A stretch of 64,000 bases of DNA from NCBI GenBank assembly GCA_965214605.1, contig OZ243961.1, positions 64,001 to 128,000 on the forward strand, read 5' to 3'. The position numbers and the translations under genes were made by a program. Shown piece after piece: positions 2,111 through 47,921 of the stretch (its first letter is position 1; every line of letters starts with the position of its first letter). The notes beneath the pieces are model-generated. The model had not been told where the DNA came from, made no database searches, and saw only the letters and a list, made by a program, of their open reading frames with translations. The DNA comes from an uncultured Candidatus Binatia bacterium (GTDB taxonomy: Bacteria; Desulfobacterota; Binatia; Bin18).

Positions 2111-3079
2111 TTAGGCGAGGCGTGGCAGCACCTTTTCGGTCAACAGCAAAAAGCTCTGGTGGCTTAGCGGTGCGCCGATAATATAATCGAGATGGATTTC
2201 CTCGTGCAGCCGCGCGAGCTCATCGACCACCCGCTCGGGCGAGCCGTGAACGATGACTCGATCCACATAGTTCTGAACCGGATCATCAACAACGCCAAAC
2301 CGTTTTGGATCAACATAGGCGTCAATCAGCCAGCGCGCCCCCTGGGTCGCGACTTCCCTTGCTTGAGCATCATTCGGGGCAATTGCCACCAGGCGGGCCA
2401 TAGGCGTGTCTCGACCGGCGATCGAATGACCGTGGTGGTGCAGCTGATCCCGATAGCTGGCCCACTTTTGACCGATCTCCACGTGGGTCGAGTGGGGATC
2501 CATGAGAATCGAGTAGCCCATGGCGGCCGACCAAGCGATGGCAGCCGGGGAGGACGCGGCGGTCCATACCGGAGGGTGGGGGTGCTGGAGCGGCTTGGGC
2601 AGAACCTCCACTTGGTCAAATGAATAATAGTGGCCGCTGTAGCTCAGCCGCTCACTCGTCCAGGCCTTAATGACAATATCGACGCTCTCGTGAAAGCGGG
2701 CCTGACTCTCGTCCAGAGGAACGTCAAACGCCTTAAACTCATTGACATCAAAGCCGCGTCCGACTCCCCAGTTGACCCGCCCGCCGGAGAGGAGGTCAAG
2801 CAGGGCAATCTCCTCGGCTAGACGCAGCGGATGGTACAATGCGGCCAGACTCACTCCGGTCCCAATGCGCAAATTCTTTGTCCGGGCCGCCGCATAACTG
2901 CCCATGACCGGAATTGACGGACACACGCTGTAATCGGTGAAGTGATGCTCGGTCAGCCACACTGCATCATAGCCGGCGTGATCCATGATCTCGATGCGTT
3001 GGAGTGTCCGTTGATAGACGGTCGGCAGGGTCACCCGCCGCCCGGGCCAACTGAAGAATTGGAGAATACCGAATTTCAC
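2111..3079 (-). CDS. LLM class flavin-dependent oxidoreductase
   Basis: WLTEHHF, HPLRLAEE, GRVNWGVGRG, PKPLQHPHPP. Confidence 0.95.
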   Translation of the reverse strand: MKFGILQFFSWPGRRVTLPTVYQRTLQRIEIMDHAGYDAVWLTEHHFTDYSVCPSIPVMGSYAAARTKNLRIGTGVSLAALYHPLRLAEEIALLDLLSGGRVNWGVGRGFDVNEFKAFDVPLDESQARFHESVDIVIKAWTSERLSYSGHYYSFDQVEVLPKPLQHPHPPVWTAASSPAAIAWSAAMGYSILMDPHSTHVEIGQKWASYRDQLHHHGHSIAGRDTPMARLVAIAPNDAQAREVATQGARWLIDAYVDPKRFGVVDDPVQNYVDRVIVHGSPERVVDELARLHEEIHLDYIIGAPLSHQSFLLLTEKVLPRLA

Positions 3080-3443
3080 GCGCTTTCCTTCTTCCGTGTG
3101 ACCGGGGTCGTCAACTGATCACGCCAGCGTCCGCCCCACCCATCCGTCCGCCCTGCGTCCGGCCCAGGCAGCACAGAGCGAGAGCTTGGAGAGTGCGCTT
3201 TTCCTGTGTCTTCGGGTTTCAGATGCGGCTACGCGTTTCATGTCAACAATTTATAACTCAATCTATGCGGGGGTAAATCCCCGAATAGAAGAGCGGGGCG
3301 GGACATGCTGCGCGGCGGCTGTTGCCAAACACACCGAGTCTGACTGGAATCCCCTCTCGACGCTACTGACTTTTCAACGTAATCTTGAGATGCCAGTGTC
3401 CGAGAATGAACATCGTGCAAACCCTTTTCTTAAGGAGGTCGTT

Positions 3444-4706
3444 ATGAAGTTTACCTGGTTCAATCTGATGCCGTGGCCGTATCTCCCAGATAATTTCCGG
3501 GAGGACTACCGCTCGGTCTGGGTGGATTTGCCCAATTCGCTCTACGACCCCCAAAAGGGTCATTTTGTCTACCATGAGTATATGGATCAGCTCGAATACG
3601 CTGACTCGCTAGGCTTTGACGGCATTGGTGTGAATGAGCACCACCAGAACGGCTATGGTCTGATGCCCTCGCCCAATATCATTGCCGCCGGTCTGGCTCG
3701 GCGGACATCGCAGGCGGCGCTGGCGGTAATCGGTAATTCCATCGCTCTCTACAACCCGCCGATTCGGGTAGCCGAAGAATTCGCCATGCTGGACGTGCTT
3801 TCGGGTGGCCGACTGCTGGCCGGGTTCCCGGTTGGTACATCGATGGACACCAACTATTGCTACGGGCAGATTCCAGCGACGACCCGCGATAAATACGCCG
3901 AGGCGCATGAACTCATTATGCGCGCTTGGGCTGAAGAAGAACCGTTTGCGTTCGATGGCAAATACAACCAGTTACGCTGGGTCAACTGCTGGCCCAAACC
4001 CCTCCAACGGCCGCACCCGCCAATCTATATTCCCGGCGGCGGCTCGGTCGAAACCTGGGACTTCTGCTTAGATAACGACTATAACTATTCCTACCTGTCG
4101 TTTACCGGCTACTTGCGCGGCAAGCAGCTGATGGACGGTTACTGGGACCGGGTGGCGGCGCGTGGCAAAGATGAGTCTCCTTACCGGGGCGCGTTTGCCC
4201 AGACCGTTTGTGTGGCTGATACTGACCAGGAAGCCGAAAAGCTCTACGCCGAGCACGTGAGCTATTTCTATAATCGCTGTTTGCACGTCTACAACGGCTT
4301 TGCCGACGCACCGGGCTATCGGACGGTTAAAACCATCAAGGCGAATGTGCTGAACGCCCTGAGTGAGGATATGCAGCAGACTTTTCCGACCCTGACCTGG
4401 AAACAGCTCCTTGACGAGGGCTACATCATTGCCGGTAGCCCGGCGACCGTGCGCGAACGTATGGAAGCTATGATCAAAGGCTTGCACGTTGGGCATGTTT
4501 TCTGCCTGATCCACATCGGCAATATGCCGGATTGGAAGACACGCTACTCAACCCAGCTGTTTGCCGAACAGGTCATGCCTCACCTGCGTGACATGTGGCC
4601 AGACTGGAAGGATGACAATCGGTGGTGGTGCCAACCCATGGATGATCGGCTGGAACCCGAAACGAATATCGAAAAAGCCCGTGCTAACGGGAGGGTTCCT
4701 CTGTGA
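3444..4706 (+). CDS. LLM class flavin-dependent oxidoreductase
   Basis: AAGGAGG RBS before ATG 3444; VNEHH, PIRVAEE, PKPLQRPHPP. Confidence 0.95.
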   Translation: MKFTWFNLMPWPYLPDNFREDYRSVWVDLPNSLYDPQKGHFVYHEYMDQLEYADSLGFDGIGVNEHHQNGYGLMPSPNIIAAGLARRTSQAALAVIGNSIALYNPPIRVAEEFAMLDVLSGGRLLAGFPVGTSMDTNYCYGQIPATTRDKYAEAHELIMRAWAEEEPFAFDGKYNQLRWVNCWPKPLQRPHPPIYIPGGGSVETWDFCLDNDYNYSYLSFTGYLRGKQLMDGYWDRVAARGKDESPYRGAFAQTVCVADTDQEAEKLYAEHVSYFYNRCLHVYNGFADAPGYRTVKTIKANVLNALSEDMQQTFPTLTWKQLLDEGYIIAGSPATVRERMEAMIKGLHVGHVFCLIHIGNMPDWKTRYSTQLFAEQVMPHLRDMWPDWKDDNRWWCQPMDDRLEPETNIEKARANGRVPL

Positions 4707-6950: not shown

Positions 6951-7820
6951 TTAGTGTGGAGCGAGCGCTTCCAGCGCCCGCTGGTGTGGATTCATTCCGC
7001 CTTCAGAGCTGAGCGGCAGCAGGCACACATGGCTGGCCCCGGCCTGATAATACGCGTCGATGCGTTGTTGAATACGCTCCGCATCGCCCCAGGCAATCAG
7101 CGCGTCCACCAGACGGTCACTCCCGTCGTCGGCGAAGTCCGTGTCATCGAAGCCGATCGTCCGCAGGCGCCGTACGTAGTGGTCTATCATGAGGTAGGTG
7201 CGCATATAGCGGCGCGCGGCACGGCGTGCTTTGGCCGCGTCGGTTTCTAGCATCACAGCGAGTTCGGCACACAGCCATGGTTCCGGACCCAGAGCTTGGC
7301 GGGTGTGGGTGATCTGTGCGGTGGTGGTGAAATAGGTGTGCGTCCCGCGGGTCTCGGCCGCGGCCAGGGTCAACATCTTGGGCATCATCGCGGCTAGGAC
7401 GACTGGCGGCTCAGGCTGGGGAGCGGGACCGACATACGGCGCAGCTCGCATCTTTTGTAAATATTGACGGGTGAAGCTCAGCGGTTTTGCGTAGGGAATG
7501 CCGCGGCGCTGATTACCGCCTTTGTTGCTGACACCGAGTCCCAGCACAAAACGATCCGTAAACAGTTCGCCCAACGTCCGGCTGGCATTGGCCACCGCAA
7601 TCGGCTCATAGGAGTAGATCACGGCAATGCCGGTTGCCACAACAAGACGCTCGGTTTGACTGAGCAAATACGAGGCGAACGAGAAACTCTCCCGCCCGCT
7701 CGCCTCGGCAAACCACAGCGCGCTGTAACCTAGCCGTTCGACGCGGCGGGCAAATTGACCAGCCTGGTCTCCGCTTAAACCGTCCAGAAAACAGAAAACG
7801 CCGGGGCGGTGTAAGTCCAT
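6951..7820 (-). CDS. LLM class F420-dependent oxidoreductase (TIGR03620-like)
   Basis: LGYSALWFAE, VATGIA, RFVLGLGVS, GSDRLVDALIAWG, AGASHVC. Confidence 0.85.
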   Translation of the reverse strand: MDLHRPGVFCFLDGLSGDQAGQFARRVERLGYSALWFAEASGRESFSFASYLLSQTERLVVATGIAVIYSYEPIAVANASRTLGELFTDRFVLGLGVSNKGGNQRRGIPYAKPLSFTRQYLQKMRAAPYVGPAPQPEPPVVLAAMMPKMLTLAAAETRGTHTYFTTTAQITHTRQALGPEPWLCAELAVMLETDAAKARRAARRYMRTYLMIDHYVRRLRTIGFDDTDFADDGSDRLVDALIAWGDAERIQQRIDAYYQAGASHVCLLPLSSEGGMNPHQRALEALAPH

Positions 7821-7972: not shown

Positions 7973-9307
7973 CTAGTTCGGCAGCATATCGAGATTTTTC
8001 AGCGGTGTGCGGTCTACGACCGGCAGGCGCTTGGTGCCCGGATTGAGCTTGACCGATCCCGGCTGCCGGGTAAACGGATCGACCAGACCGATGTCCTTGG
8101 CGTACTCTTGCAGGGCCGGCTTGACCTCTTGGGCGAGTAAACGGATGCTGGTCAGCCGGTCTTCATTGCTGACCGGTCCCTGCACGTTAAAGCAGGAGAA
8201 GGCGCCCGGACGCAGCACGCGCATCATCGTCTTGACCTTTTCGATAACCGTCTTGGGCGAGCCGATGACCATCAGGTAGTCGTCCTGAGCTCGCTTGTAG
8301 GCTTTGAGGAGTTTTTGTCGGACCTCGTCCAGGTCTTTGGTCTTGCGCTTGCCCTGTTGGGATTCTTTGAGCCGGTCGGAATCTACCCCAACCCAGCCGC
8401 CACTCGGCCGCTTGGCCAGCAGCCGGATGGCGTTCTTGGAGTTGTAGCCCGGCGGCAGGGTGTGTTCCGGGCGCGAAAAAGCGCTGGCCCCGCCGCCAAA
8501 CACAAAACCCCTGCCCAATTCTTGGGCTTTTTCATCGGTTTCTGCGCAGAATACGCCGATGAGGTAGCCGAAATTTTCCGGACCGGCTTGATAGCCGTTC
8601 TCGGCCGCGATATCGGCATAAAAGTCCAATAGATCGCAGGTCGGGCTGAGCGCGGTCACCAAGGCGAGGTAGGGATAGTTGTGTTCGGCCGCCCATCTGA
8701 CGGTTTCAGGGCTCAGCACGCCGGGAATCCACATCTGGGGATGGGGTTTTTGGTAGGGCAGAGCCCACGGATTGACGTGACGATAGTGAAAATGTTTGCC
8801 CTCATAGCGCCACGGCCCGGGTTTGGTCCAGGCCTGAATAATAAAGTCGTGGGCTTCGTTGAACATCTCCCGGTTATAGGTCGGGTTGGCATTATTAAAA
8901 AACTGCTCGCTGCCGGCACCCCGCACCCAGCCGGTGACGAGTCGGCCACGTGAGATGAGGTCGATTTCGGCCAGCTCCTCTGCCATGCGGAGCGGATGTT
9001 TGATCACCGGCAGGGGATTCCCGATCAAGACGATTTTGGCCGTGTTGGTAATCCGGGCCAGGATGGACGCCTCGACGTTCATCACGCTGCCCATGCAAAA
9101 CGGGTTGCCGTGATGCTCGTTGAGCATCAGCGAATCAAAGCCCATCTCCTCTGCATAACAGTATTCGTCGAGGAAGTAATTGTAGTCATCCGCCGCCTTA
9201 TCACGGTCAAAACGGTCATTCGGGATGGCAAAGAAACCCTCGTGTCCGAGCACTTCGTCCTCATCAACCCAGCGATACGGCCGCTCAGTAAAATACCCAA
9301 AGTTCAT
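7973..9307 (-). CDS. LLM class flavin-dependent oxidoreductase
   Basis: LNEHH, GNPLP..HPLRMAEE, PYQKPHP, PPGY. Confidence 0.95.
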   Translation of the reverse strand: MNFGYFTERPYRWVDEDEVLGHEGFFAIPNDRFDRDKAADDYNYFLDEYCYAEEMGFDSLMLNEHHGNPFCMGSVMNVEASILARITNTAKIVLIGNPLPVIKHPLRMAEELAEIDLISRGRLVTGWVRGAGSEQFFNNANPTYNREMFNEAHDFIIQAWTKPGPWRYEGKHFHYRHVNPWALPYQKPHPQMWIPGVLSPETVRWAAEHNYPYLALVTALSPTCDLLDFYADIAAENGYQAGPENFGYLIGVFCAETDEKAQELGRGFVFGGGASAFSRPEHTLPPGYNSKNAIRLLAKRPSGGWVGVDSDRLKESQQGKRKTKDLDEVRQKLLKAYKRAQDDYLMVIGSPKTVIEKVKTMMRVLRPGAFSCFNVQGPVSNEDRLTSIRLLAQEVKPALQEYAKDIGLVDPFTRQPGSVKLNPGTKRLPVVDRTPLKNLDMLPN

Positions 9308-12099: not shown

Positions 12100-15000
12100 C
12101 TAGTCGGGTTGAGGGACGTCGCTCGTCTGGGGGGGAGCCGTCGGGCCGGGCCGGGCGGCGCTTGCCCGGAGCAGCCGGGGGAGGCTGCGGAGGTCCTCCA
12201 GAATCATATACCCAGCCGGGACGATCAGGAGAATAATAGCGGTCGCAAACAAGATGCCAAAGCCGATTGAGATGGCCATGGGGATCAGAAAGCGGGCCTG
12301 CATAGAGGTCTCAAAAATCATCGGCATCAGACCGAAAAAGGTGGTCAGCGAAGTCAGCAGAATAGGCCGGAAGCGTCGCATCCCGGCCCGGCAGATGGCC
12401 TCTAGGGGGGTGGGCGTGGTCTCGCGCAGTTGGTTGGCGGTGACGACCAGAACGAGTGCGTCGTTAATCACCACCCCGGCTAGGGCGATGATGCCGAACA
12501 GGCTAATCATGCTGAGCGTATAGCCCAACAGAATATGGCCGATGACCGCGCCGATAATGCCGAAGGGAATGCTCAGCATGACAATGATGGGCTGGATATA
12601 GCTCTTGAACGGGATAGCCAGCAGGGCATAGATGGCCAGGAGAGCGAAAACAAAACCCAAGCCGATCGCCGCTATTGACTCTTTTTGCCATTCCTGCTCG
12701 CCCTCCAGGGTATAATTGAGGCCGGGATATTTCTCCATCAGGAAGGGGATCTCGTTCTGTTCCAAGGAGGTCACAATCATGTTGGCATTCGCAACGCTCT
12801 CATCAACATCGGCCGTCACCGCCATGATACGCCGGCCTTCGCGGCGACGGATCTCGGTATAGGCCCGGCCATAGTCGACCGTGGCAGCCTGAATGAGGGG
12901 AATCTCCCCGCCCTGGGGAGTCCGAATGACCAGCTGCTCAATGGTATGGGCGGTCCGCCGCTCGTGTTCGGGCAGGCGGACCATAACCTTGATCTCGTTG
13001 CGGCCGCGCTGCTGACGGAGAGCTTCGGCCCCATAGAACGAGCCGCGCAGTTGGCGGGCGAGGTCGGTTGCATTGATCCCCAGGCTGCGGGCTTCGGGTT
13101 TGACGGTAAGGCTGAGTTGGGGTTTGCCGTGTGAGACGCCGTCGTCAATATCGGCGACACCGGCATAGCCGGCCAGCAGGCCGGCCAGGTCTGCGGCGGC
13201 GGCTTCAAGCACCTGGCGCGAGCGATGAGTGAGCTGGATGTCCAGGGCAGCCTCACTGCTGAAGCCGGATTCGGCATGAAAGCTTAGCGATTCCAGGCCG
13301 GCAATATGGCTGGCTGCCTGGCGCCAGGTGTTGGCGAATTCAACGCCGCTGACATCGCGTTGATCGGACGGAACCAGAGCAAGCTGTACCCCGGCCAGAT
13401 GGCCGCCGCTCAGCTTTGGCGGTCCATCGTTGGGGCCGCCGGGGTTGAGCACCGCCCCGATCTGTGTATACGTCCCGCGAACGATAGCCGGCCCGCCATG
13501 GGTAGCGACGGCCACCTGCATGGCTTCGAGCAGCTGCTGTCGCACCCGTCGTGAGGTGTCCAACGGAGCACCGAACGGCAGGGTGGCCTGGGCGGTAATG
13601 AGGTCGGAGTCGATGCGGGGCATGAAACTGAACTGGAGATGACCGCCCCCGATTGCGCCAAGGGCGAGCAGCAGGGCGGCAATACCGGTCATCAGGGTGG
13701 TGTAGCGGTGGACGATGGCCGTCTGCAGCAGCGGATGGTAGACTCGTCTAATGAACGCCTCGAGCAGACGCCCGAAGACCAGCCGGGGACGGTTGAGGGT
13801 CTGCCACAGGCGGCTGGGTGTATTTTGACGTGACAGGTGGGCCGGAAGGATGAACAGCGACTCAATCAGCGAGACGCTAAATACGGCGATCGTCACCGCC
13901 GGGATATTCAGAAAGAACTTGCCGGCCGCACCAGGGACAAACACCAGCGGCAGAAAGGCAACGATATTGGTCAGCACGGCAAAAATAATCGGCCCAGCAA
14001 TTTCTTGCGCGCCCTCAATGGCCGCCACGAGGAACGGCCGGCCGCGCTGGCGTTTTTCATAGATGTTCTCCCCCATGACGACCGCGTCATCAACGATGAT
14101 GCCCAGGGTAATAATAAACGCGAAGAGCGAAATCATGTTGATCGACGCTCCGCTCAGGGGCATGAAGAGAAAAGCGCCCATGATTGAGATGGGGATGCCC
14201 AGGGTGACCCAGAAGGCGAGCTTGGGGTCGAGGAACAGCCCTAGCAGGAGCAGAACCAGGATCAGACCGAGGAAGGCGTTTTTCAGCAGCAGGCGCATCC
14301 GGTCGCGGTAGATCTCAGACCAATCGTTCCAGACCGTCAGGCCGACCCCTTCAGGCAGCCGGGGTCGGATCTCGTCAATATAGGCGTGGACACTGGCGGA
14401 AACCGACTGCGGGGTTTCCTTGGCGACCCGATACACCTGAACCTGGACGGCGCGCTGGTTGTTGAAAAACGCCTCAAAGTCCCAATCTTCAAAGCCGTCG
14501 GTGATCAGCGCAATATCGCCGACCGTAATGCGGGAGCCGTCCGGGGCTGAGGCAACGGCAATATCGGCGTATTGGCTGGCATAGTCGCGGCGTTCCTGGG
14601 TACGCAGCAGGATTTCTCCGCCGGCAGCCTTCAGCCCGCCGGCCGGTAGTTCGACCGCGGCTTCGCGTATCTCACGCGCAATCTTGCCCAGAGTGAGATT
14701 ATGGGCGCGCAGATTGCGCTGGGGCACCTCGACGGCAATCTCAAGCGGGCGCACGGCCCCGAGCTCGACCAGAGTGATGTCCGGGCGCTGAAGTAAGTCG
14801 TCGCGGATCTGTTCAGCGAGGTCGCGCAGCGTTTGTTCGTCGTGGTCGCCATAGATCATGAGCGTCAGCACTTGATTGCGGAGTTCGACCAGACTGACGA
14901 TCGGCTTTTCGGCTTCTTCGGGGAAGGAGAGGATACTGTCCACCGCATTTTTAACATCCTGGAGGGCCCGGTCTGGGGCTGCGCCGGTGAGCAGTTCGAT

Positions 15001-15318
15001 CACCACCGAGCCGTGGTTCTCGCGGGCCATGGCGGTAACCTTTTTGACCCCCTCAATGCCGCGGACCCGGTCCTCAATCGACAGGATGATCCCCTGCTCA
15101 ACCTCAGCCGGGCTGGCTCCGGGATAGGGGACGCTGGCCACGATGACATCTATGGCGAACTCGGGAAACACCTCTTGTTTCACCTGGGTACTGGCGATGA
15201 AGCCACCGCAGACAATGACCAACATAATCAGATTGGCGGCAACGTGGTTGCGGGCCATCCAGGCGATCGGGCCGCTGTGCAAGGTTGTTGAATCGGCTTC
15301 AGAATTGGTGCGTTCCAT
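12100..15318 (-). CDS. RND efflux transporter permease (AcrB family)
   Basis: About 1070 aa; GIIVDDAVVMGEN and RFRPILLTSLTT; two TM bundles. Confidence 0.96.
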   Translation of the reverse strand: MERTNSEADSTTLHSGPIAWMARNHVAANLIMLVIVCGGFIASTQVKQEVFPEFAIDVIVASVPYPGASPAEVEQGIILSIEDRVRGIEGVKKVTAMARENHGSVVIELLTGAAPDRALQDVKNAVDSILSFPEEAEKPIVSLVELRNQVLTLMIYGDHDEQTLRDLAEQIRDDLLQRPDITLVELGAVRPLEIAVEVPQRNLRAHNLTLGKIAREIREAAVELPAGGLKAAGGEILLRTQERRDYASQYADIAVASAPDGSRITVGDIALITDGFEDWDFEAFFNNQRAVQVQVYRVAKETPQSVSASVHAYIDEIRPRLPEGVGLTVWNDWSEIYRDRMRLLLKNAFLGLILVLLLLGLFLDPKLAFWVTLGIPISIMGAFLFMPLSGASINMISLFAFIITLGIIVDDAVVMGENIYEKRQRGRPFLVAAIEGAQEIAGPIIFAVLTNIVAFLPLVFVPGAAGKFFLNIPAVTIAVFSVSLIESLFILPAHLSRQNTPSRLWQTLNRPRLVFGRLLEAFIRRVYHPLLQTAIVHRYTTLMTGIAALLLALGAIGGGHLQFSFMPRIDSDLITAQATLPFGAPLDTSRRVRQQLLEAMQVAVATHGGPAIVRGTYTQIGAVLNPGGPNDGPPKLSGGHLAGVQLALVPSDQRDVSGVEFANTWRQAASHIAGLESLSFHAESGFSSEAALDIQLTHRSRQVLEAAAADLAGLLAGYAGVADIDDGVSHGKPQLSLTVKPEARSLGINATDLARQLRGSFYGAEALRQQRGRNEIKVMVRLPEHERRTAHTIEQLVIRTPQGGEIPLIQAATVDYGRAYTEIRRREGRRIMAVTADVDESVANANMIVTSLEQNEIPFLMEKYPGLNYTLEGEQEWQKESIAAIGLGFVFALLAIYALLAIPFKSYIQPIIVMLSIPFGIIGAVIGHILLGYTLSMISLFGIIALAGVVINDALVLVVTANQLRETTPTPLEAICRAGMRRFRPILLTSLTTFFGLMPMIFETSMQARFLIPMAISIGFGILFATAIILLIVPAGYMILEDLRSLPRLLRASAARPGPTAPPQTSDVPQPD

Positions 15319-15322
15319 GTGC

Positions 15323-16555
15323 TTAGACCAGGTCTTCGTCAAGAGTCCGGGGGAGGGTCTCGGTCGGCGAGGAGGGTTCGGGTGCGCTCTGGAGAACCAT
15401 ACCGGGGAGGGCGGCGGGAAGGGGACTGGTAATCACCTCGTCGCCATCCTGCAGACCGTGCCGAATGAGCAATGAGTCGTGTCTGCCTAGGATGACTTCG
15501 ACCTGTCGGATTTCCAGTTGATTGCTGGCGTTTTTGACCCACACCCGGCCGCCTTCTCGGAGTGTGCCACGGGGGAGGACGAACACGTCGGTCAGCTGAG
15601 GCCCGTCAATTTCGACCCGCACATACTCTCCGAGCAACAGCGGCAGTCGCCGGTCTTGGGAGTGCTGACGGTTCAGAGGGTCATTGACCAGGACGAGGAG
15701 ACGGGCCATGCGGCCGTTTTGTGAGACGTCGCCAAGCAGGCCGGCGATCTCCCCCTGGCGCAGGGCGGTCTTGCCATTTCCCAGGTCTCGAATGACCTGC
15801 GCCTGTGAGCCGGTGGGCTGCGTCGGCCCGGGAATATCGATCCAGGTCAGGTCGTGTATGGGGAGGCTGACCTCGACCCGAAAGGCGTCGGTACACACCA
15901 GGCGGGCCACGGGGGTTTGGGACATGACGAGTTGGCCGACCTCGACCGATTCCTCCAGCACAAGGGCGTTACACGGGGCGGTCAAGGTCGTCCGCTGGAG
16001 GTCGAGCCGGGCCTTGGCCAGACGGCTTTTGGCGGCGGCTACCGCGGCCTGTTTTTCGCGCAGATGGGGTCTGCGTAGGGCTAGCTGTTTGCCCATTTCG
16101 CTGGCCTCGATCGACGGCTCGAGCAACTCCCACTCACGCTGGGCAATGACCTGCTTGCCGAGTTCAAGCTCTAACTCAAACTCAGCTTTGGCCAGAGCAC
16201 CCTGCTGGGTCTCAACCGCGTAGGTGTAGTCGCGGGAGTCAATCCGTAGCAGTACGTCGTCAGTCTGCAACAGGCCGCCTTTGGTCAGGTTGGCATGCTG
16301 CTGGGTTACAGAGCCGCCGACCTGGGGATGAACGCTTAATTCCTGATGGGCCCGAACTGTGCCAAAGGCTGAAATCACGGCGCGTATGTCTTCGGAGTGG
16401 ACGGTGAGGACTTCAACAACGGTCGCGGTTGCTGGTGGAGCCGCTTTTTGGACTGCAGGCCGGCTGGCAATCAGCGCCCGAGCGCCCATCACTCCACTGC
16501 CTAGAATGAGGACAGGGAGCAGAGTTTGGAGGAGTCGTTTGGCCCAGTATATCAT
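15323..16555 (-). CDS. RND efflux periplasmic adaptor (MFP)
   Basis: N-terminal TM segment, FGTVRA, lipoyl-like LRIDSRDY, alpha-hairpin, GLQDGDEVI. Confidence 0.93.
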   Translation of the reverse strand: MIYWAKRLLQTLLPVLILGSGVMGARALIASRPAVQKAAPPATATVVEVLTVHSEDIRAVISAFGTVRAHQELSVHPQVGGSVTQQHANLTKGGLLQTDDVLLRIDSRDYTYAVETQQGALAKAEFELELELGKQVIAQREWELLEPSIEASEMGKQLALRRPHLREKQAAVAAAKSRLAKARLDLQRTTLTAPCNALVLEESVEVGQLVMSQTPVARLVCTDAFRVEVSLPIHDLTWIDIPGPTQPTGSQAQVIRDLGNGKTALRQGEIAGLLGDVSQNGRMARLLVLVNDPLNRQHSQDRRLPLLLGEYVRVEIDGPQLTDVFVLPRGTLREGGRVWVKNASNQLEIRQVEVILGRHDSLLIRHGLQDGDEVITSPLPAALPGMVLQSAPEPSSPTETLPRTLDEDLV

Positions 16556-18033
16556 CAGTGCGTCCTAGCGGCCGTGATTTGCGCGGACCAGAGGGTGGGA
16601 GGGGCGGTCAGGTGGCCCGTCCAGTGCCCGCCTAGGGCCCGATAGAGGCCGGCGCGATTGCTCAGCAGGCGGCGTTTTTCGTTGATCAGCCGGCGTTGCA
16701 GACCTTGTAAGGATTGGACGGCGATCAGGACGGTCACATAGTTGACCAGACCGTGCATATAGCGTGACTGGGACTCTTGTAGCGTTGCTTCGGCCAGCGA
16801 ACTCTGATTCTCCAGGTTGGCGATCAACTCGACCTGAAAACGTTCCCGCGCCAGGGCGTCTTCAATTTCGAGCAGAGCTTGCAGATACCGCTGGCCAAAG
16901 CGGTCGAGCAGCTCTTGGACGACCGCCTTGTGGCGCAAGACCTGGTTGCGACGCTGACCACCGTCAATAACCGGCGCAACCAGGTTGCCGACTAGGGATC
17001 CGACTTCTTGGCGGAAGACGCTTGAGAAGCTGCGGGCGCTGAACTCGTAGGAGAGGTCAAGGACCAAGCGCGGCAGCCGTTCGGCCACCGCGGTAGCAAC
17101 CCGAAAGTCCGCGGCCTGCAGGCGGAGCTGAGCGGAGCGCAGGTCCGGCCGAGCCATCAGCAGCTCGGCCGGATCGCCCAACTCGGGAAACGGGGGCAGG
17201 TCGGGCAGGTCCCCATCCGGAATGCTGGGGTCAAGCGTTCCCGGGGAGGTGCCGAGCAGCACGGCTAATTGATTGTAGGCAGTACTGAGAGTTGAGCGGA
17301 CCAGAGGAATTTCGGCCTGGGTGGCGGCCAACTGCTGGCGCTGCTGCAACACATCAACCGCGGAGCCGGCACCAACCCCAAAACGCACTTCGGTCAGATC
17401 GAGCAGGGACTGGCTGACCTGAATTTGCTCTTCCAGTAAGGCCAGCAGTGCCTTCTGTTCCTGAAGAATGAACCAGACGTCTACCACAGAACCGGTCAAA
17501 AGGATCGCGCTGGCTTCAACGTCTTGACGGCTGGCCTGATACTCCAGCGCGGCCGCGCGACGGCGGGCGGCAATCCGTTTCCAGACGTCAATTTCGTACG
17601 ACAGACCGGTGGACACAAAATAGCGGTCGGTATGGGTAATCCGGGTGGACGGTCCAGCCTGTCCGCCGAATGGGACTTGGGGGTCGCGGTCAACTTGGTG
17701 GGTTCGGGCCGCGCCGCCGCTCAGATTGACCCGCGGGAATATCTCGGCGCCCTCGATCCGAGCCTGGGCGTAGGCCTGAGTGAGGCGGTTCCACAGTTGT
17801 CGGAGCTCCAGGCTGTTTCCCAGGGACTGTTCGACCGTCGCGTTGAGCGCCGGGCTGTTAAATTCCTCCCACCATTCGCCGATCACCCGGGTGCCGTCCA
17901 TGGCGTGATGATAGGTTTTCAGCATCGGGACTTCGGGCCGGTTCAGAGTTCGCACCTGATATGGGCTACAGCTGTTAGTCACAAAGGCTAGGAGGATTGA
18001 GCAGACCAAAGCTTGTAGAGATGTTGTCCACAT
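16555..18033 (-). CDS. Outer-membrane efflux factor (TolC/NodT-type lipoprotein)
   Basis: Lipobox-like TNSC, WWEEF, YEIDVW, RPDLRSA, LYRALGGHW. Confidence 0.93.
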   Translation of the reverse strand: MWTTSLQALVCSILLAFVTNSCSPYQVRTLNRPEVPMLKTYHHAMDGTRVIGEWWEEFNSPALNATVEQSLGNSLELRQLWNRLTQAYAQARIEGAEIFPRVNLSGGAARTHQVDRDPQVPFGGQAGPSTRITHTDRYFVSTGLSYEIDVWKRIAARRRAAALEYQASRQDVEASAILLTGSVVDVWFILQEQKALLALLEEQIQVSQSLLDLTEVRFGVGAGSAVDVLQQRQQLAATQAEIPLVRSTLSTAYNQLAVLLGTSPGTLDPSIPDGDLPDLPPFPELGDPAELLMARPDLRSAQLRLQAADFRVATAVAERLPRLVLDLSYEFSARSFSSVFRQEVGSLVGNLVAPVIDGGQRRNQVLRHKAVVQELLDRFGQRYLQALLEIEDALARERFQVELIANLENQSSLAEATLQESQSRYMHGLVNYVTVLIAVQSLQGLQRRLINEKRRLLSNRAGLYRALGGHWTGHLTAPPTLWSAQITAARTH

Positions 18034-21576: not shown

Positions 21577-22953
21577 CTAACCTCCAGAAAAACTCACCTC
21601 TGGCAGCTCCTTCATGGCACGCTCGATTTCCCTGGTGGGATGAGTGGAACCTTGCAGCGTGCCCGCGTGGTAATCGGCATAGGCCGCCATATCGAAGTGA
21701 CCATGGCCGCTGAGATTAAAGACAATGACTTTTTTCCCTCCGTGTTCTCGGCATTGCACAGCTTCGTCAATCGCCGCACGGACCGCATGGTTTGCTTCCG
21801 GGGCGGGGAAGATGCCTTCTGTCTGGGCAAACATTGCCCCGGCTTCAAAGGCATCTAGCTGGTCGATCGCCACGGCTTCGATCAGGCCAGCGTGACGCAG
21901 CGCGCTGATCTGGGGGGACATGCCGTGATAGCGCAGACCGCCGGCATGGATGGGGGCCGGCACAAAAGAATGGCCTAACGTATACATCTGACAGATGGGG
22001 GCTATGCCGCCGGTATCTGCCCAATCCCAGGTATAGCGGCCTTTTGTCAAAGTTGGACAGGCCGTTGGCTCGGCGGCGATAATTCTGGTCTTTTTGCCGT
22101 TCCTGAGGTTTTCCCGAAGGAACGGAAAGGCAAAGCCGCCAAAATTTGATCCACCGCCCGCACAAGCGATGACACTGTCCGGATACTCGCCGGCCATCTC
22201 CATTTGTCGTAGCGTTTCCTCGCCGATAATGGTTTGGTGCAGCAACACATGGGGCAGGACTGAGCCGAGGCTATACTTGGTGTTACCGTCCGAGGTTTGG
22301 GCGGCTTCGATCCCTTCTGACACGGCAATCCCTAGTGCCCCCGGATGCTCGGGATGCTCGCTAAGCAGCCTGCGGCCGACAGCGGTTCGCTCGGACGGGC
22401 TGGCGTATACCGTACCGCCATAGGTTTCGATCACATGCCGGCGGTACGGTTTCTGCTGGTAGGAAATACGGACCATGTAGACTGCACAGCCAAGGCCAAA
22501 GAAGTTGCAGGCCATTGACAGGGCCGATCCCCACTGTCCGGCTCCGGTCTCGGTCGTCAGGGTCCGGATACCCTCCTGCTTGGCGTAGAAAGCTTGGGCA
22601 ACGGCGGTATTCGGCTTATGCGAGCCGACCGGGCTGCTGCCCTCGTATTTATAGTAGATATGAGCCGGAGTCTGTAGGTGTTGCTCCAAACGACGAGCAC
22701 GGGACAATAGGGTCGGTCGCCACAGCTTGTATATGTCACGCACCGGCTCAGGAATTTCAATATAGCGCTCCTGACTCGCGTCCTGGGCCATGAGCTCAAG
22801 GATGATAAAATCACTCAGAAATGCGGGGGTGATCGGGTGCTTCGTTGCCGGATGGAGAGGAGGCGACGGCGGCGTCGGCATATCAGCGTTGATATTGTAC
22901 CAGGCTCGGGGTATGCGGCTGTCGTCAAGCAGAAATTTTGTCTGATCGTGCAT
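21577..22953 (-). CDS. trpB2: TrpB-like PLP enzyme (TrpB2), with no trpA nearby
   Basis: GSHKPNTA (PLP lysine), TETGAGQWG, GGGSN, HAGGLRYHG, NLSGHG. Confidence 0.93.
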   Translation of the reverse strand: MHDQTKFLLDDSRIPRAWYNINADMPTPPSPPLHPATKHPITPAFLSDFIILELMAQDASQERYIEIPEPVRDIYKLWRPTLLSRARRLEQHLQTPAHIYYKYEGSSPVGSHKPNTAVAQAFYAKQEGIRTLTTETGAGQWGSALSMACNFFGLGCAVYMVRISYQQKPYRRHVIETYGGTVYASPSERTAVGRRLLSEHPEHPGALGIAVSEGIEAAQTSDGNTKYSLGSVLPHVLLHQTIIGEETLRQMEMAGEYPDSVIACAGGGSNFGGFAFPFLRENLRNGKKTRIIAAEPTACPTLTKGRYTWDWADTGGIAPICQMYTLGHSFVPAPIHAGGLRYHGMSPQISALRHAGLIEAVAIDQLDAFEAGAMFAQTEGIFPAPEANHAVRAAIDEAVQCREHGGKKVIVFNLSGHGHFDMAAYADYHAGTLQGSTHPTREIERAMKELPEVSFSGG

Positions 22954-22990
22954 GGTCGTGTTCCTCATCTCCAAGGGCTGATGTGCCGGT

Positions 22991-23527
22991 TTAGTCCGTC
23001 TGGGTTAGGCCTAAGACCGCCGGCCACAGCTCACGGTCGTGAATAGTATAGCGATACGCAGCGTCGAGGCTGGCGAGCAGGCTGACAACTTCCGGCCGCT
23101 CGGTCCGGTCGCCGTTCCAGTCGCCGGCTTGCTCGACGAGTGTGTCTAAAAAGCTATGCAAAATCCCTAACACCCCGTCGCTTTTCTGGGTCAGGACTTT
23201 CAACATCGCAGCATGGTTGAGGGAAAAGCCGGGCCCTCGGACTAGCCAGCCGGCAAAGCCGGGTTCTTCGGTTGACGCCTGCTGCCACCAGTGGAGCCAG
23301 GCAAAGGCCAGCAGGACTTGATCGGCGGGAGGCATCATGTAGTAGGTCGCGGCCCAGTTCGGGGGAATGTCAGCATCAGGCCCGATGAGCTCTGAGGGGA
23401 GGGCGTCGAGCTGATCCGAGGACGTGAGGTTATTCTGAAGCGCCAAGCGCTCCCAGCGCGACACCGCCCGCCGCAGCAAACGGTCAACCTCAGCATGACC
23501 GGGCGTCCAACTCAAAAAATCATACAT
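22991..23527 (-). CDS. Hypothetical protein (178 aa)
   Basis: Fills the gap between co-oriented genes with short spacers; no recognised motif. Confidence 0.65.
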   Translation of the reverse strand: MYDFLSWTPGHAEVDRLLRRAVSRWERLALQNNLTSSDQLDALPSELIGPDADIPPNWAATYYMMPPADQVLLAFAWLHWWQQASTEEPGFAGWLVRGPGFSLNHAAMLKVLTQKSDGVLGILHSFLDTLVEQAGDWNGDRTERPEVVSLLASLDAAYRYTIHDRELWPAVLGLTQTD

Positions 23528-23541
23528 GAAGAGGGGCCGGC

Positions 23542-24672
23542 TTAGGCAGCTGTCTCACCTAACGTGTTGCGAGCCGAACCAAAGCGGTTCAAACCGAGTT
23601 CTTCTCGGAAATCGCTGCTTTTGTCCAGCATTGGGTCGCTGACAGCGATTCCGGTCGCGTCGGCAATCCGGACCATTTGCATAAACGTGGCAACGATACC
23701 GGCGGCATCGACCAATCCCTGTGGTCCGATTTCTTCAAGCATCTCGCGGCGAAGGGTCTGCCGCTCAGCCTCGTCGTCGCCCAATACGGCTTCGGCAAAA
23801 CGGATAAGCAGCTTCCCATGTGCCACGCCGCTGTCTTTTGCCAGATCAGTCACCGCGCTCAGATCAAGAGTGTCGGTCAACTGTTGTGTTTGACTGCTCT
23901 CCCGGAGCATGACCACATGGCTCGTCGTTCAATAGAAGCACTGGTTTAGGACCGAGACGCGGGCTGCCAGCAGCTCTATTTGGGCCCGATTAATGGCCCG
24001 ACCCGGGTCACAGCTGGGGTCTCTGACCCGAAACGGGTCCATATACTGAGCTGGGATCAGAGTGAAGATCGACAAACGTACTTCGTCAGGCACGAGGCTG
24101 AGCGCGCGCAGGACGGGTGCGGCGGCACGACCGCCATAGATATCCGCATCTGGACCGTGGACTTCTCCCGGTGGAAGCGTGCGCACCCATTCGCCATTGT
24201 CCTGGGCCAGCGGTGGACGGTAGTGGGAGGGAGTCCCCGCTACAGGCGAAGGCAAAGGGTGGAGGGGAACGGCGAGCGCCCGACAGAAGGTATCGATGCT
24301 GATCGTCCGGACCAACACGCCCAAGGCTTCAACGTAGTGCGTGTCCTGCAGCCCTTGGACTGTCAGCCGCTCGTACCACTCCTTGCTCAGACGGCCCGGA
24401 TCAGTCGTGATGTGGTGAATCATCTCAGCCATGACTTCGGACACAAGGCCGGTCGTGTCATGCTGGCCCTCAACGGCCGATGGGGAGAGGGCTGCGCGGC
24501 GTGCGATACAGAACCGACAGGTGTAGGCTTTGCGCACCTCGGCGGCGATGGCAATCCGTTCAGCACCCGTCCACCAGGTGCCGGGCTCGGCTAGTTTCTG
24601 CCAAATCGTCTCATGCGCGGCCCGGATATCCGCTCGAACTGGGACCAGAGACTGGGCGTACGATACTTCCAT
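23542..24672 (-). CDS. Alkylhydroperoxidase (AhpD)-related selenoprotein, about 376 aa, Sec at UGA 23931-23929
   Basis: ORFs 23929-24738 and 23542-23916 are in the same frame; readthrough gives IELLAARVSVLNQCFY-U-TTSH (AhpD E..CxxC..H pattern); AAGGAGG RBS before ATG 24672. Confidence 0.85.
23895..23928 (-). promoter_or_regulatory. Candidate bacterial SECIS element
   Basis: UGCUC-CGGGA-GAGCA stem-loop with a G-containing loop starting 24 nt after the UGA. Confidence 0.65.
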
Positions 24673-24867
24673 AACAGGCCCTCCTTCGTCCCCAAGACCA
24701 TGCAGGTGGGGGCGGTGTCTGGCAAGCATTTCGGACATCCGACTGTTCCAGACGTGCGGCTGGCGGAGGCGTGATCTCTGCTTGCATCTTTTTTCCGTTT
24801 GTATAATGTGTTGCGCAATAGTTTGCTAGGACAGGATATCACAGGCGGCAAAAACAAGGAGGATGGT

Positions 24868-25995
24868 ATGAAAGTTGGCATGATACCCCAATTGACGAGT
24901 TTTCATGGCAAACCTGATTTTCAGACGTATCAGGAGGAACTAGCGCTGGCCGACATGGCCGAAGACATGGGGTTTGACTCGATCTGGGCGCTGGATCACC
25001 ATTTCACCGGCTATACCATGTCGCCGGACCCGACCCAAATGCTGAGCTATTTTGCTGGTCGGACGAAGCGGGTCCAGCTTGGCACCGCAGTGATCGTGCT
25101 GCCGTGGCACGATCCGGTCGAAGTGGCCGAGAACATTGCCCTGCTTGATGTCCTGTCAAACGGCCGGACTATTATCGGCTTTGGTCGCGGGGCGGCCACG
25201 GTCGAGTATGAGGGCTACCGCATTCCAATGCACGAGTCGCGCGAACGGTTTGTCGAGTGCGCGGAGATCGTTCGTCTGGGGCTGACCCAGGAGAGCTTCT
25301 CGTACGATGGCAAATTTTACCAGATTCCAGAAATTCAGATCCGTCCGCGTCCGATCTCTCATCCAGAGCAGCGCTTTTACGCCTCTTCGGTCAGCCCCGA
25401 GTCGGCAGAGATTATGGCCAAGCTCGGGCTTGGGGTGTTGATCATTGCCCAGCGGAGTTGGGAGGATACGGCTGCGGACTACCAGCGCTACGTTGAGAAT
25501 GCGCTGGCCAGCGGCTTTCAGCCGCGTCCCCCGATCGGGCTGTTCAACGTGTTGGTGTCGGACGACGCTCAAGAGGCCGAGGATTTGGCTCAAGTCCACA
25601 TGGGTGCCATGTTTGACTCTATCGAAGAACACTATCGCTTCTCTTCGGGCCGCTTGAATGACGTCAAAGGCTACGAGTTCTACGGAAAGATGGCAAAAAC
25701 GTACGCCAAGCTGAACGCCGATGAAGAAGCCAAGGCTAAGGCGGTGGCATTTTATCGTAGCTTGCACGCGGCAGGCACGGCCGATCAGGTGTTGGAAAAG
25801 TTCCGCTACGTTCATTCGACCGTCGCCCTTGAGCACGTTGTGAACACTTTTGGCTTTGGTGGCTTGCCCATTGATAAACTGCGCCGCAGCTACCAGCTGT
25901 TTGCCGAGAGAATTCTGCCGGTGCTGCAGCACGACGCGGCTTTCCAACTGCCCAAGGATCAGAACGGCTATACCGAGATGGCTGCCTCGGCCTAG
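24868..25995 (+). CDS. LLM class flavin-dependent oxidoreductase
   Basis: AAGGAGG RBS; WALDHHFTGY, LGTAVIVLPWHDP, GFGRG. Confidence 0.95.
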   Translation: MKVGMIPQLTSFHGKPDFQTYQEELALADMAEDMGFDSIWALDHHFTGYTMSPDPTQMLSYFAGRTKRVQLGTAVIVLPWHDPVEVAENIALLDVLSNGRTIIGFGRGAATVEYEGYRIPMHESRERFVECAEIVRLGLTQESFSYDGKFYQIPEIQIRPRPISHPEQRFYASSVSPESAEIMAKLGLGVLIIAQRSWEDTAADYQRYVENALASGFQPRPPIGLFNVLVSDDAQEAEDLAQVHMGAMFDSIEEHYRFSSGRLNDVKGYEFYGKMAKTYAKLNADEEAKAKAVAFYRSLHAAGTADQVLEKFRYVHSTVALEHVVNTFGFGGLPIDKLRRSYQLFAERILPVLQHDAAFQLPKDQNGYTEMAASA

Positions 25996-47066: not shown

Positions 47067-47252
47067 AACCGTGCCGAGTCGCCTGAGGCGGTCGCGGTTG
47101 GCCGCAATATGGGCGAGCGCGGTAGGGAGACTCTTGGCGGGCCGCGAGGGCAGCCAGCCCGGATAGCCGGCAAGGGCAAACTCCTGGGCGATGCCGTGCC
47201 CCATCAGCCCCGCGCCAACAACCGTGACACATTGAATGTCGTCACCATCCAT
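47064..47252 (-). pseudogene. 5' fragment of 3-hydroxyacyl-CoA dehydrogenase
   Basis: Matches the first 60 or so codons of 55013-55960, then stops. Confidence 0.9.
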
Positions 47253-47895: not shown

Positions 47896-47921
47896 CGCTC
47901 AGGAAGAGCGGCACGCCCTAA
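47409..47921 (+). pseudogene. 3'-truncated copy of the PRISE-like SDR
   Basis: Matches the first 162 or so aa of 53759-54856, then diverges to TLRKSGTP*. Confidence 0.9.

What the first reader, a model, noticed from the sequence alone, without database searches (positions are those of the whole stretch)
23542..24672. Hidden selenoprotein: two ORFs form one AhpD-like protein with CxxU
Seen: the upstream ORF ends ...VLNQCFY-TGA and the same frame continues ACG ACG AGC CAT GTG (TTSHV) straight into ORF 23542-23916, which has no clear RBS. Readthrough gives IELLAARVSVLNQCFYUTTSH, and a UGCUC-CGGGA-GAGCA hairpin loop begins 24 nt after the UGA. A second motif, CRFC, lies near the N-terminus. Known: AhpD carries E-x11-CxxC-x3-H, bacterial SECIS elements sit just 3' of the UGA, and AhpD-like selenoproteins have been reported. 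Inference: a protein of about 376 aa with Sec248 and multiple AhpD modules, which standard gene callers would split.
Basis: partly seen in the sequence, partly recalled or inferred. Interest (0 to 1): 0.8.

Follow-up and report, generated by a model that had tools for sequence, protein, structure and literature searches.

The report
Known AhpD-related selenoprotein gene, split by UGA

Summary
On the minus strand, the frame starting at ATG 24672 reaches TGA 23931-23929 after ...NQCFY and continues open to TAA 23542. Read through, it gives 376 aa with Sec248.

The read-through protein matches NCBIfam NF041238 'AhpD_rel_CFYUT, alkylhydroperoxidase-related (seleno)protein' end to end (440.8 bits, cutoff 175).

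All 79 related genomic loci (81 gene copies) carry TGA at this codon with the frame open behind it. Cys forms also exist.

A hairpin 24 nt after the UGA is conserved, shows compensatory changes and has frozen synonymous sites. The window keeps only its 5-bp core.

TGA is an ordinary stop elsewhere in the window.

A 2026 review equates NF041238 with 'hypothetical protein 1' of the 2005 Sargasso Sea selenoproteome.

Two points remain open. Sec machinery in this genome could not be checked: none lies in the window. The biochemical function of the family is unknown.

Side observation: in 13 of 79 relatives the gene sits beside selA and/or selD; one of them also has selB and tRNA-Sec, and seven have senA/senB.

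The parts
23542..24672 (-). Whole gene: 376-codon AhpD-related selenoprotein (ATG 24672, in-frame UGA, TAA stop 23544-23542)
   Evidence: Translation with TGA=U. NF041238 at 440.8 bits covering profile 1-356 of 357. AlphaFold2 model with pLDDT 95.2 and pTM 0.94.
24680..24686 (-). Shine-Dalgarno-like AAGGAGG, 7 nt before ATG 24672
   Evidence: Read directly from the sequence. Homologues and the public gene call P0002 start at the equivalent Met.
24508..24519 (-). N-terminal C52-R-F-C55 motif
   Evidence: Both Cys are invariant in 45 of 45 and 37 of 37 aligned sequences. The motif aligns in register with C245/U248 in the comparison of the two halves.
23917..23976 (-). Redox centre E233-x11-C245-F-Y-U248-T-T-S-H252
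   Evidence: E233, C245, Y247 and H252 are invariant. The stretch aligns to the CxxC of the solved AhpD-like protein 6k40.
23929..23931 (-). UGA codon read as selenocysteine (residue 248)
   Evidence: TGA at the aligned codon in 81 of 81 gene copies from 79 loci. Cys in full-length homologues.
23895..23909 (-). Core of the SECIS-like hairpin: 5-bp stem UGCUC/GAGCA with loop CGGGA (loop 23904-23900)
   Evidence: The hairpin is conserved in register in 82 sequences, with 91.4% of cells paired and compensatory changes at pairs 22-38 and 21-39. Synonymous sites are frozen. The window's stem is short: -5.6 kcal/mol against a median of -10.0.

Best explanation
Window 24672-23542 (minus strand) is a single gene for a member of the AhpD-related (seleno)protein family NF041238 ('CFYUT' family, formerly 'hypothetical protein 1' of the Sargasso Sea selenoproteome).

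How it is made. During translation, the UGA at codon 248 is read as selenocysteine. SelB carrying Sec-tRNA(Sec) is recruited by a small hairpin inside the coding sequence, whose loop starts 24 nt after the UGA. This step is inferred from the bacterial SECIS model and was not tested here.

What results. The product is a 376-aa all-helical protein of two AhpD/CMD-like lobes. The C-terminal lobe carries a C245-x-x-U248 redox pair flanked by E233 and H252. This is the same Glu/Cys/Cys/His arrangement as in AhpD-type thiol oxidoreductases, so the likely chemistry is a selenenylsulfide/selenol-thiol cycle that reduces a peroxide, disulfide or similar oxidised substrate. The N-terminal lobe carries a second, invariant CxxC that may act as a relay or resolving centre.

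Shown: gene unity, family membership, conservation of the UGA, conservation of the hairpin, and the fold. Inferred: actual Sec insertion in this organism, the catalytic cycle, and the substrate.
For: - Family match: NF041238 gives 440.8 bits (cutoff 175) over profile 1-356 of 357 for the read-through protein. The two halves alone give 289.6 and 113.5 bits on adjoining profile parts 1-238 and 245-356. Pfam CMD passes its cutoff only when the frame is read through (25.5 against 23).
- Truncated homologues: of the 120 best homologues listed (599 hits), 115 cover only 57-65% of the query and are 221-281 aa long. P0003, P0011, P0013 and P0039, checked in alignment, end at ...CFY. Four cover 88-91%.
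- Conserved TGA: all 79 loci (81 copies) have TGA at the aligned codon. In 80 copies the frame stays open for 116-161 more codons; the 81st (L030) runs off its contig.
- Downstream conservation: identity to the window is 43% downstream of U and 48.5% upstream, averaged over 44 sequences.
- Sec to Cys ratio: among the best 150 of 3301 representatives, 99 end exactly at E-x11-C-x-Y, and 3 more end at C-F-Y with Gln in place of that Glu. 26 read through with Cys.
- Hairpin: 91.4% of cells are paired, against 85.8 +/- 0.7 in shuffles (0 of 500 reach it) and 24-56% when slid. Pair 22-38 is CG 51 / AU 17 / GU 2 / UG 1, and pair 21-39 is GC 57 / AU 4 / UA 1 / GU 2. RNAalifold finds the same stem.
- Frozen synonymous sites: Leu is CTC in 82 of 82 (33.6% elsewhere in the same genes). 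Arg is CGT/CGG in 81 of 81 and never CGC (44.9% elsewhere). The next codon ends in G in 82 of 82 across four different amino acids. Ser is AGY in 77 of 77 (37.8% elsewhere).
- Published bSECIS model: the hairpin fits on loop length, stem length, G in loop position 2 and 24-nt spacing.
- TGA is a normal stop here: 13 of 34 family-matched ORFs in the window end in TGA.
- Structure: the model has pLDDT 95.2. The top PDB matches are AhpD-core proteins 2prr, 6k40 and 3c1l (probability 1.00, TMt 0.52-0.63). The PDB profile search gives 6k40 at E 8.6e-14 with CxxU aligned on CxxC.
- Sec machinery in relatives: tRNA-SeC, selB, selA and selD lie directly beside the family's genes in L048.
- Literature: NF041238 is listed as a CxxU selenoprotein (passage in PMC13188914), and the original description is in PMC1088965 (passages).
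Against: - Sec machinery (selA, selB, selC, selD) could not be shown for this genome. There is none in the 64-kb window, and the rest of the genome was not available.
- The window's hairpin is among the weakest of the set. It has 5 bp with an A.G mismatch at pair 22-38, at -5.6 kcal/mol against a median of -10.0; only 3 of 81 others are weaker.
- Folding the window's sequence on its own is not informative. The 76-nt fold has z = -0.05 and its minimum-energy structure uses a competing pairing. The bSECIS energy criterion (<= -7.5 kcal/mol) is met only at the limit for a 32-nt span.
- Rfam has no matching family.
- The hairpin lies in conserved coding sequence (L-L-R-x-S), so part of its conservation is due to the protein. 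The sequences are also related to each other, so the counts are not independent events.
- No experiment on any member of this family was found in the papers read.
Confidence: 0.9

Rival explanations
1. The TGA is a true stop in this organism. The gene would be a decaying or split relic: a 247-aa N-terminal protein is made, and the downstream 124 codons are untranslated or made separately from GTG 23916.
For: Sec machinery is not shown for this genome. The window's hairpin is weaker than in most relatives. Gene callers produce exactly this 247-aa product (P0002).
Against: The downstream 124 codons are intact and score 113.5 bits on profile positions 245-356 of the same family. No ribosome-binding site precedes GTG 23916. 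The catalytic His252 and half of the C-terminal AhpD-like lobe lie behind the stop, so a 247-aa product would lack part of a fold that is predicted with pLDDT 95 as one unit. The same arrangement is kept in 81 of 81 copies across many phyla.
Confidence: 0.06
2. UGA is read through as a standard amino acid (Trp, Gly or Cys) by a changed genetic code or a suppressor, not as selenocysteine.
For: Cys at this position is functional in natural homologues (26 of the 150 best representatives). No tRNA-Sec was seen in the window.
Against: 13 of 34 family-matched ORFs in the window end at TGA, so UGA is a normal stop here. A position-specific hairpin with covariation follows the codon. tRNA-SeC, selB, selA and selD sit next to family members in a relative.
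Confidence: 0.02
3. The TGA is a sequencing or assembly error for TGC/TGT (Cys).
For: Cys forms exist in the family.
Against: The window's nearest homologues in the protein collection (87%, 79% and 74-75% identity; P0003-P0007) are all 247-248 aa, that is, cut at the same codon. All 79 genomic loci have TGA. The hairpin that accompanies the TGA is present.
Confidence: 0.02

Closest known systems
NCBIfam NF041238 'AhpD_rel_CFYUT', alkylhydroperoxidase-related (seleno)protein. [quoted passage not shown]
   Same: Full-length match of 440.8 bits against a cutoff of 175. The same C-F-Y-U-T motif, the same length (about 370 aa), the same TGA position and the same downstream hairpin as 81 other copies.
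   Different: Nothing essential. The window's hairpin stem is shorter (5 bp). Its neighbours (a 178-aa ORF of no family and a TrpB-like PLP enzyme) are shared only with one Binatia genome, L001.
TIGR01926 'peroxidase-related enzyme' / COG2128-type AhpD-like proteins, including the published 'AhpD-like' CxxU selenoproteins; solved structures 6k40, 2prr, 3c1l, 2pfx, 2oyo
   Same: The C-terminal lobe has the same fold and the same E...CxxC...H centre, with Sec in place of the second Cys. The CxxU motif is also reported for that selenoprotein family (PMC1088965 and PMC2398784 passages).
   Different: The score is below the family cutoff (44.2 against 81.8 bits). This protein is twice as long, with an extra N-terminal AhpD-like lobe that carries its own CxxC.
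Mycobacterium tuberculosis AhpD (TIGR00777; PDB 1gu9/1knc)
   Same: The same arrangement of Glu, Cys-x-x-Cys and His. The residue numbers Glu118/Cys130/Cys133/His137 are recalled and come from no call. There is a weak profile match to chain residues 112-164 (E 0.069).
   Different: Not a member: 13.8 bits against a cutoff of 191.95. No ahpC gene was noted nearby. Two-lobed architecture, and Sec instead of the second Cys.
Sestrin2 (PDB 5dj4, 5cuf), a eukaryotic protein built of two AhpD-like lobes
   Same: It is the only full-length (360-390 column) kind of match in the PDB fold search, consistent with a two-lobe AhpD-like build.
   Different: The superposition is poor (TM 0.35-0.40, rmsd 14-16 A, 11-14% identity). 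This is an architectural analogy only.

Membership tests
NF041238 AhpD_rel_CFYUT (seleno)protein | Score above the curated cutoff over the whole profile | tested here: met
   440.8 bits against cutoff 175, profile 1-356 of 357.
NF041238 AhpD_rel_CFYUT (seleno)protein | C-F-Y-U-T motif with U encoded by an in-frame TGA (Cys in some members) | tested here: met
   CFY-TGA-T at 23940-23926. TGA in 81 of 81 copies. Cys in 26 of the 150 best representatives.
Bacterial selenoprotein gene | SECIS-like hairpin after the UGA: loop 3-9 nt, stem 4-16 bp, G in loop position 1 or 2, 16-37 nt from the UGA (model as printed in PMC13188914) | tested here: met
   Loop CGGGA (5 nt, G at position 2 followed by G), 5-bp stem, 24-nt spacing. 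Conserved with covariation in relatives.
Bacterial selenoprotein gene | bSECIS minimum free energy <= -7.5 kcal/mol (same model) | tested here: inconclusive
   Core hairpin -5.6; 32-nt span -7.5; 60-nt span -11.9 with the hairpin included. The 76-nt fold uses a competing pairing, z = -0.05.
Bacterial selenoprotein gene | Cys-containing homologues aligned at the UGA | tested here: met
   P0038, P0046 and P0049 have CFYC. 26 Cys forms among the 150 representatives.
Bacterial selenoprotein gene | selA, selB, selC and selD present in the same genome | not testable with these tools
   None in the window. The genes are present beside family members in relatives.
Bacterial selenoprotein gene | Selenium actually incorporated in the protein | not testable with these tools
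   Needs 75Se labelling or mass spectrometry.
Pfam PF02627 CMD / AhpD-core superfamily | Domain score above the gathering cutoff, and AhpD-like helical fold | tested here: met
   25.5 bits against 23, but only for the read-through protein. Foldseek top hits are 2prr, 6k40 and 3c1l, probability 1.00.
TIGR01926 peroxidase-related enzyme (COG2128-type AhpD-like) | Score above the curated cutoff | tested here: not met
   44.2 bits against 81.8.
AhpD proper (TIGR00777) | Score above the curated cutoff | tested here: not met
   13.8 bits against 191.95.

The most novel reading that the evidence does not exclude
The family may not be a peroxide-defence enzyme. It may instead be part of selenium handling, for example reducing or trafficking selenium species for SelD.

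The basis is gene neighbourhood. In 13 of 79 related loci the gene lies within 6 kb of selA and/or selD. In one locus it lies directly beside tRNA-Sec, selB, selA and selD. In seven gammaproteobacterial loci it lies beside selA, senA and senB, and in four of those seven also selD; senA and senB are selenoneine genes.

The passages I read in the selenoprotein papers and the sen-cluster preprint (0 occurrences of AhpD or alkylhydroperox) do not mention this link.

The window itself shows no such neighbourhood. Clustering of a client selenoprotein with the Sec genes, through co-transfer of the trait, is an equally simple explanation.
Probability: 0.12. Interest if true: 0.5.

Novelty: already known. 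Interest (0 to 1): 0.15.

Why it matters
The practical value is for annotation. Standard gene calling cuts this gene into a 247-aa stub and an orphan ORF, as it does in most public copies: 115 of the 120 best hits and 102 of the 150 representatives.

The finding also indicates that this organism uses selenocysteine. From synteny with L001, the organism is probably a Binatia-class bacterium. Searches for 'selenoprotein' with 'Binatia' and 'selenocysteine' with 'Binatota' returned 0 papers and 1 paper; I saw only the listing of that one paper.

The family has no biochemical characterisation in the papers I read, so its substrate is an open but modest question.

Tried and rejected
- Rfam, region at E <= 10 and whole window at gathering scores: only chance hits or nothing.
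- Single-sequence folding of 76 nt around the UGA: z = -0.05, and the minimum-energy structure does not contain the hairpin. This was uninformative, so the question was settled by comparison of relatives instead.
- tRNA scan of the window: none.
- NCBIfam scan of 64 window ORFs: no sel gene. tblastn of SelA, SelB, SelD, SenA and SenB from relatives against the window: no hit.
- Conserved operon partner: the window's neighbours (178-aa ORF, TrpB-like enzyme, LLM oxidoreductase, acyl-CoA dehydrogenase) are syntenic only in L001, out of 79 loci. No family-wide partner was found.
- General UGA reassignment: rejected, because 13 of 34 family-matched ORFs end in TGA.
- Crude scan of the window for other in-frame TGA with a Cys, Ser or Thr nearby: 36 places, most in non-coding frames of this 60.6% G+C DNA. 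Apart from the gene under study, none was examined further.
- Pair 20-40 of the hairpin: unpaired in 33 of 77 distinct sequences, so it is not counted as part of the stem.
- Not done: complex prediction, which no claim here needed. For that reason I could not test whether Cys forms lack the hairpin.

Full report
**The observation**

- On the minus strand, the ORF listed as 23929-24738 ends ...VLNQCFY followed by TGA (23931-23929). The same frame continues ACG ACG AGC CAT GTG... without interruption to TAA at 23544-23542.
- Translated with TGA=U, the frame is open throughout.
- The likely start is ATG 24672-24670, preceded by AAGGAGG with a 7-nt spacer.
  - Homologues begin at the equivalent Met.
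  - The public gene call identical to the window's protein (P0002, 247 aa) also begins there.
A script asserts that codon 248 is TGA.
- The motif E233-x11-C245-x2-U248-x3-H252, the N-terminal C52-R-F-C55, and the UGCUC/CGGGA/GAGCA hairpin with its loop 24 nt after the UGA are all present.

**What it is**

- The read-through protein matches NCBIfam NF041238, 'AhpD_rel_CFYUT, alkylhydroperoxidase-related (seleno)protein' (model type equivalog).
  - It scores 440.8 bits against a cutoff of 175, over profile positions 1-356 of 357.
  - The two ORFs alone match adjoining parts of that profile: 1-238 at 289.6 bits and 245-356 at 113.5 bits.
- Pfam's CMD domain passes its cutoff only in the read-through protein (25.5 against 23), across residues 248-286 of the 398-aa translation, which straddle the UGA.
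- The protein is not AhpD proper (TIGR00777, 13.8 against 191.95 bits) and not a TIGR01926 member (44.2 against 81.8 bits).

**Is the UGA conserved?**

- Protein search (599 hits, 120 listed):
  - 115 proteins are 221-281 aa long and cover only 57-65% of the query.
  - One is a 41% fragment, and four cover 88-91%.
  - In alignment, the four short ones checked end at ...CFY.
  - Three long ones have CFYC, and one (P0118) has CFYR.
- Genome scan: a scan of one genome per species found 397 relatives. The 79 best loci were kept.
  - All 79 have TGA at the aligned codon, 68 by a strict pattern and the other 11 by a looser one.
  - Two loci (L002, L048) carry a second tandem copy, also with TGA.
  - In 80 of the 81 copies the frame stays open for 116-161 further codons. 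The last copy runs off its contig.
- Downstream conservation: protein identity to the window is 43% downstream of the UGA and 48.5% upstream, averaged over 44 sequences. The downstream part is therefore under protein-level selection.
- Exhaustive profile search (3301 hits, best 150 inspected):
  - 99 proteins end exactly at E-x11-C-x-Y.
  - 3 more end at CFY with Gln in place of the Glu.
  - 26 read through with Cys.
  - 22 are fragments or otherwise unclassified.
  - The ranking favours long (Cys) forms, so this understates the share of Sec forms.
- The 79 loci are the relatives closest to a Sec-form query, which biases them towards TGA.

**The hairpin**

- Forty-eight nucleotides from the UGA of 82 copies align without gaps.
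- For a stem at columns 20-27 and 33-40, 91.4% of cells are paired. Column shuffles give 85.8 +/- 0.7% (0 of 500 reach the observed value), and slid partners give 24-56%.
- Compensatory changes occur at three pairs:
  - pair 22-38: CG 51, AU 17, GU 2, UG 1, unpaired 6;
  - pair 21-39: GC 57, AU 4, GU 2, UA 1, unpaired 13;
  - pair 24-36: GC 71, GU 5, AU 1.
- Pair 20-40 is unpaired in 33 of 77 distinct sequences, so I drop it.
- RNAalifold independently returns pairs 22-27 with 33-38.
- The stem lies in the codons for L-L-R-x-S, so I tested synonymous sites:

| Codon | Observed at this site | Usage elsewhere in the same genes |
|---|---|---|
| Leu | CTC in 82 of 82 | CTC is 33.6% of Leu codons |
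| Arg | CGT or CGG in 81 of 81, never CGC | CGC is 44.9% of Arg codons |
| Next codon (Ala, Glu, Gly or Val) | ends in G in 82 of 82 | not computed |
| Ser | AGC/AGT in 77 of 77 | AGY is 37.8% of Ser codons |

- This argues for an RNA-level constraint on top of the protein. One caveat applies: the sequences are related, so the counts are not independent events.
- The element fits the published bacterial SECIS model on four counts: loop 3-9 nt, stem 4-16 bp, G in the first two loop positions followed by G or U, and 16-37 nt from the UGA (figure-legend passage of PMC13188914).
- The window has only the 5-bp core, with A.G at pair 22-38. Its hairpin folds at -5.6 kcal/mol against a median of -10.0, and 3 of 81 others are weaker.
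- Folded alone, the region is unremarkable (z = -0.05) and a competing pairing wins. The model's energy criterion is met only at its limit.
- Rfam has no such family.

**Other readings of the UGA**

Of 34 window ORFs with family matches, 13 end in TGA, 11 in TAG and 10 in TAA. UGA is therefore an ordinary stop here and the recoding is local to this gene.

**Structure**

- With a 45-sequence alignment, the 376-aa protein (Cys for Sec) is predicted as one all-helical unit, with pLDDT 95.2 and pTM 0.94.
- A PDB profile search places residues about 191-340 on AhpD-like/peroxidase-related proteins: 6k40 at E 8.6e-14, and 3c1l, 2oyo and 2pfx at about 1e-9 to 1e-10. C-x-x-U aligns on their C-x-x-C.
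- Foldseek gives the same entries (probability 1.00, TMt 0.52-0.63, E about 3e-3). It also gives poor full-length matches to two-lobed Sestrin2 (TM 0.35-0.40).
- The N-terminal 185 residues modelled alone (pLDDT 91.2) again hit only AhpD/CMD entries at the top, but weakly (TM 0.45-0.48, E 0.03-0.3).
- A profile-profile comparison of the two halves gives probability 24.7% (E 8e-4), with the N-terminal CxxC in register with CxxU.
- 'Two AhpD-like lobes' is therefore reasonable, with the N-terminal one divergent.

**Mechanism**

- Shown: one gene, family membership, a conserved UGA and hairpin, and an AhpD-type centre with Sec in place of the second Cys.
- Inferred from established knowledge of bacterial Sec decoding and AhpD-type oxidoreductases:
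  - SelB-dependent insertion of Sec at codon 248;
  - a selenol/thiol to selenenylsulfide redox cycle, assisted by His252 and Glu233;
  - a possible relay to the invariant C52/C55 pair.
- The substrate is unknown. I found no experiment on this family in the papers I read.

**Context**

- The gene is followed after 14 nt by a 178-aa ORF of no family (23527-22991), and then after 16 nt by a TrpB-like PLP enzyme (22974-21577; NF009057, 689.7 bits).
- A luciferase-like monooxygenase gene diverges upstream.
- Only L001, a Candidatus Binatia chromosome, shares these neighbours, at 72-91% amino-acid identity. The organism is therefore probably a Binatia-class bacterium (inference), and there is no family-wide operon partner.
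- No sel gene or tRNA lies in the window.
- In relatives, 13 of 79 loci have selA and/or selD within 6 kb.
  - L048 has two tandem family genes followed by tRNA-SeC, selB (392.5 bits), selA (589.8 bits) and a selD fusion (299.5 bits).
  - Seven gammaproteobacterial loci have selA, senA and senB next to the gene, and four of those seven also selD. In L014, where the ORFs were scanned against NCBIfam, senA scores 479.5 bits and senB 413.2 bits.

**Comparison with what is known**

- CxxU AhpD-like selenoproteins and a CxxU 'hypothetical protein 1' were reported from the Sargasso Sea in 2005 (passages of PMC1088965).
- They were counted again in the GOS data (passages of PMC2398784).
- A full-text search for 'NF041238' finds only that review.
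- A Binatia entry in NCBI already bears the family name, though it is truncated at 247 aa (P0011).

**Verdict**

The kind is already known, so interest is low (0.15). What remains open is proof of Sec machinery in this genome, the function of the family, and whether its frequent placement beside selenium-metabolism genes means more than co-inheritance.

Noticed in passing
L048:4660-13002 (also L014, L019, L023, L024, L025, L039, L047, L076; L033, L036, L040, L051): Family genes sit next to selenium genes in 13 of 79 loci. L048 has two tandem copies, then tRNA-SeC, selB, selA and a selD fusion. Seven gammaproteobacterial loci have selA, senA and senB (selenoneine genes), and four of those seven also selD. 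Four Myxococcota-like loci have a selD fusion nearby. The papers I read do not mention this.
   Followed up: partly
window 47073-47895 and 54370-55192: An 823-nt inverted repeat, 99% complementary, with 6474 nt between the arms. One arm holds the start of a full NAD-dependent epimerase gene (53759-54856, minus strand). The other arm holds a 170-aa truncated copy (47409-47921). This may be a partial inverted duplication or an assembly artefact.
   Followed up: partly
L002:5992-8352 and L048:4660-7215: Two tandem paralogous copies of the selenoprotein gene, each with its own TGA and hairpin. The Binatia chromosome of L001 also holds a second, distant copy (L079).
   Followed up: no
protein P0118 (356 aa): A full-length homologue with Arg (CFYR) at the Sec/Cys position. 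This might be a TGA-to-CGA change or an inactive form.
   Followed up: no
window 22991-23527 (-): A 178-aa ORF 14 nt downstream of the selenoprotein gene. It has no Pfam or NCBIfam match and is found only in L001, at 72% identity, among the 79 loci. It may be co-transcribed with the selenoprotein gene and the TrpB-like gene at 21577-22974.
   Followed up: partly
window 2111-3079, 3186-4706, 6951-7820, 7973-9307, 24799-25995, 45679-46830: Six luciferase-like (LLM class, several F420-type) oxidoreductase genes in 64 kb, together with several acyl-CoA dehydrogenases and an RND efflux operon at 12100-18033.
   Followed up: no
window 23542-24672 against L001:5989-7131: In the only syntenic relative, the selenoprotein is 63% identical to the window's, while the flanking genes are 72-91% identical. 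The selenoprotein has diverged faster than its neighbours.
   Followed up: no
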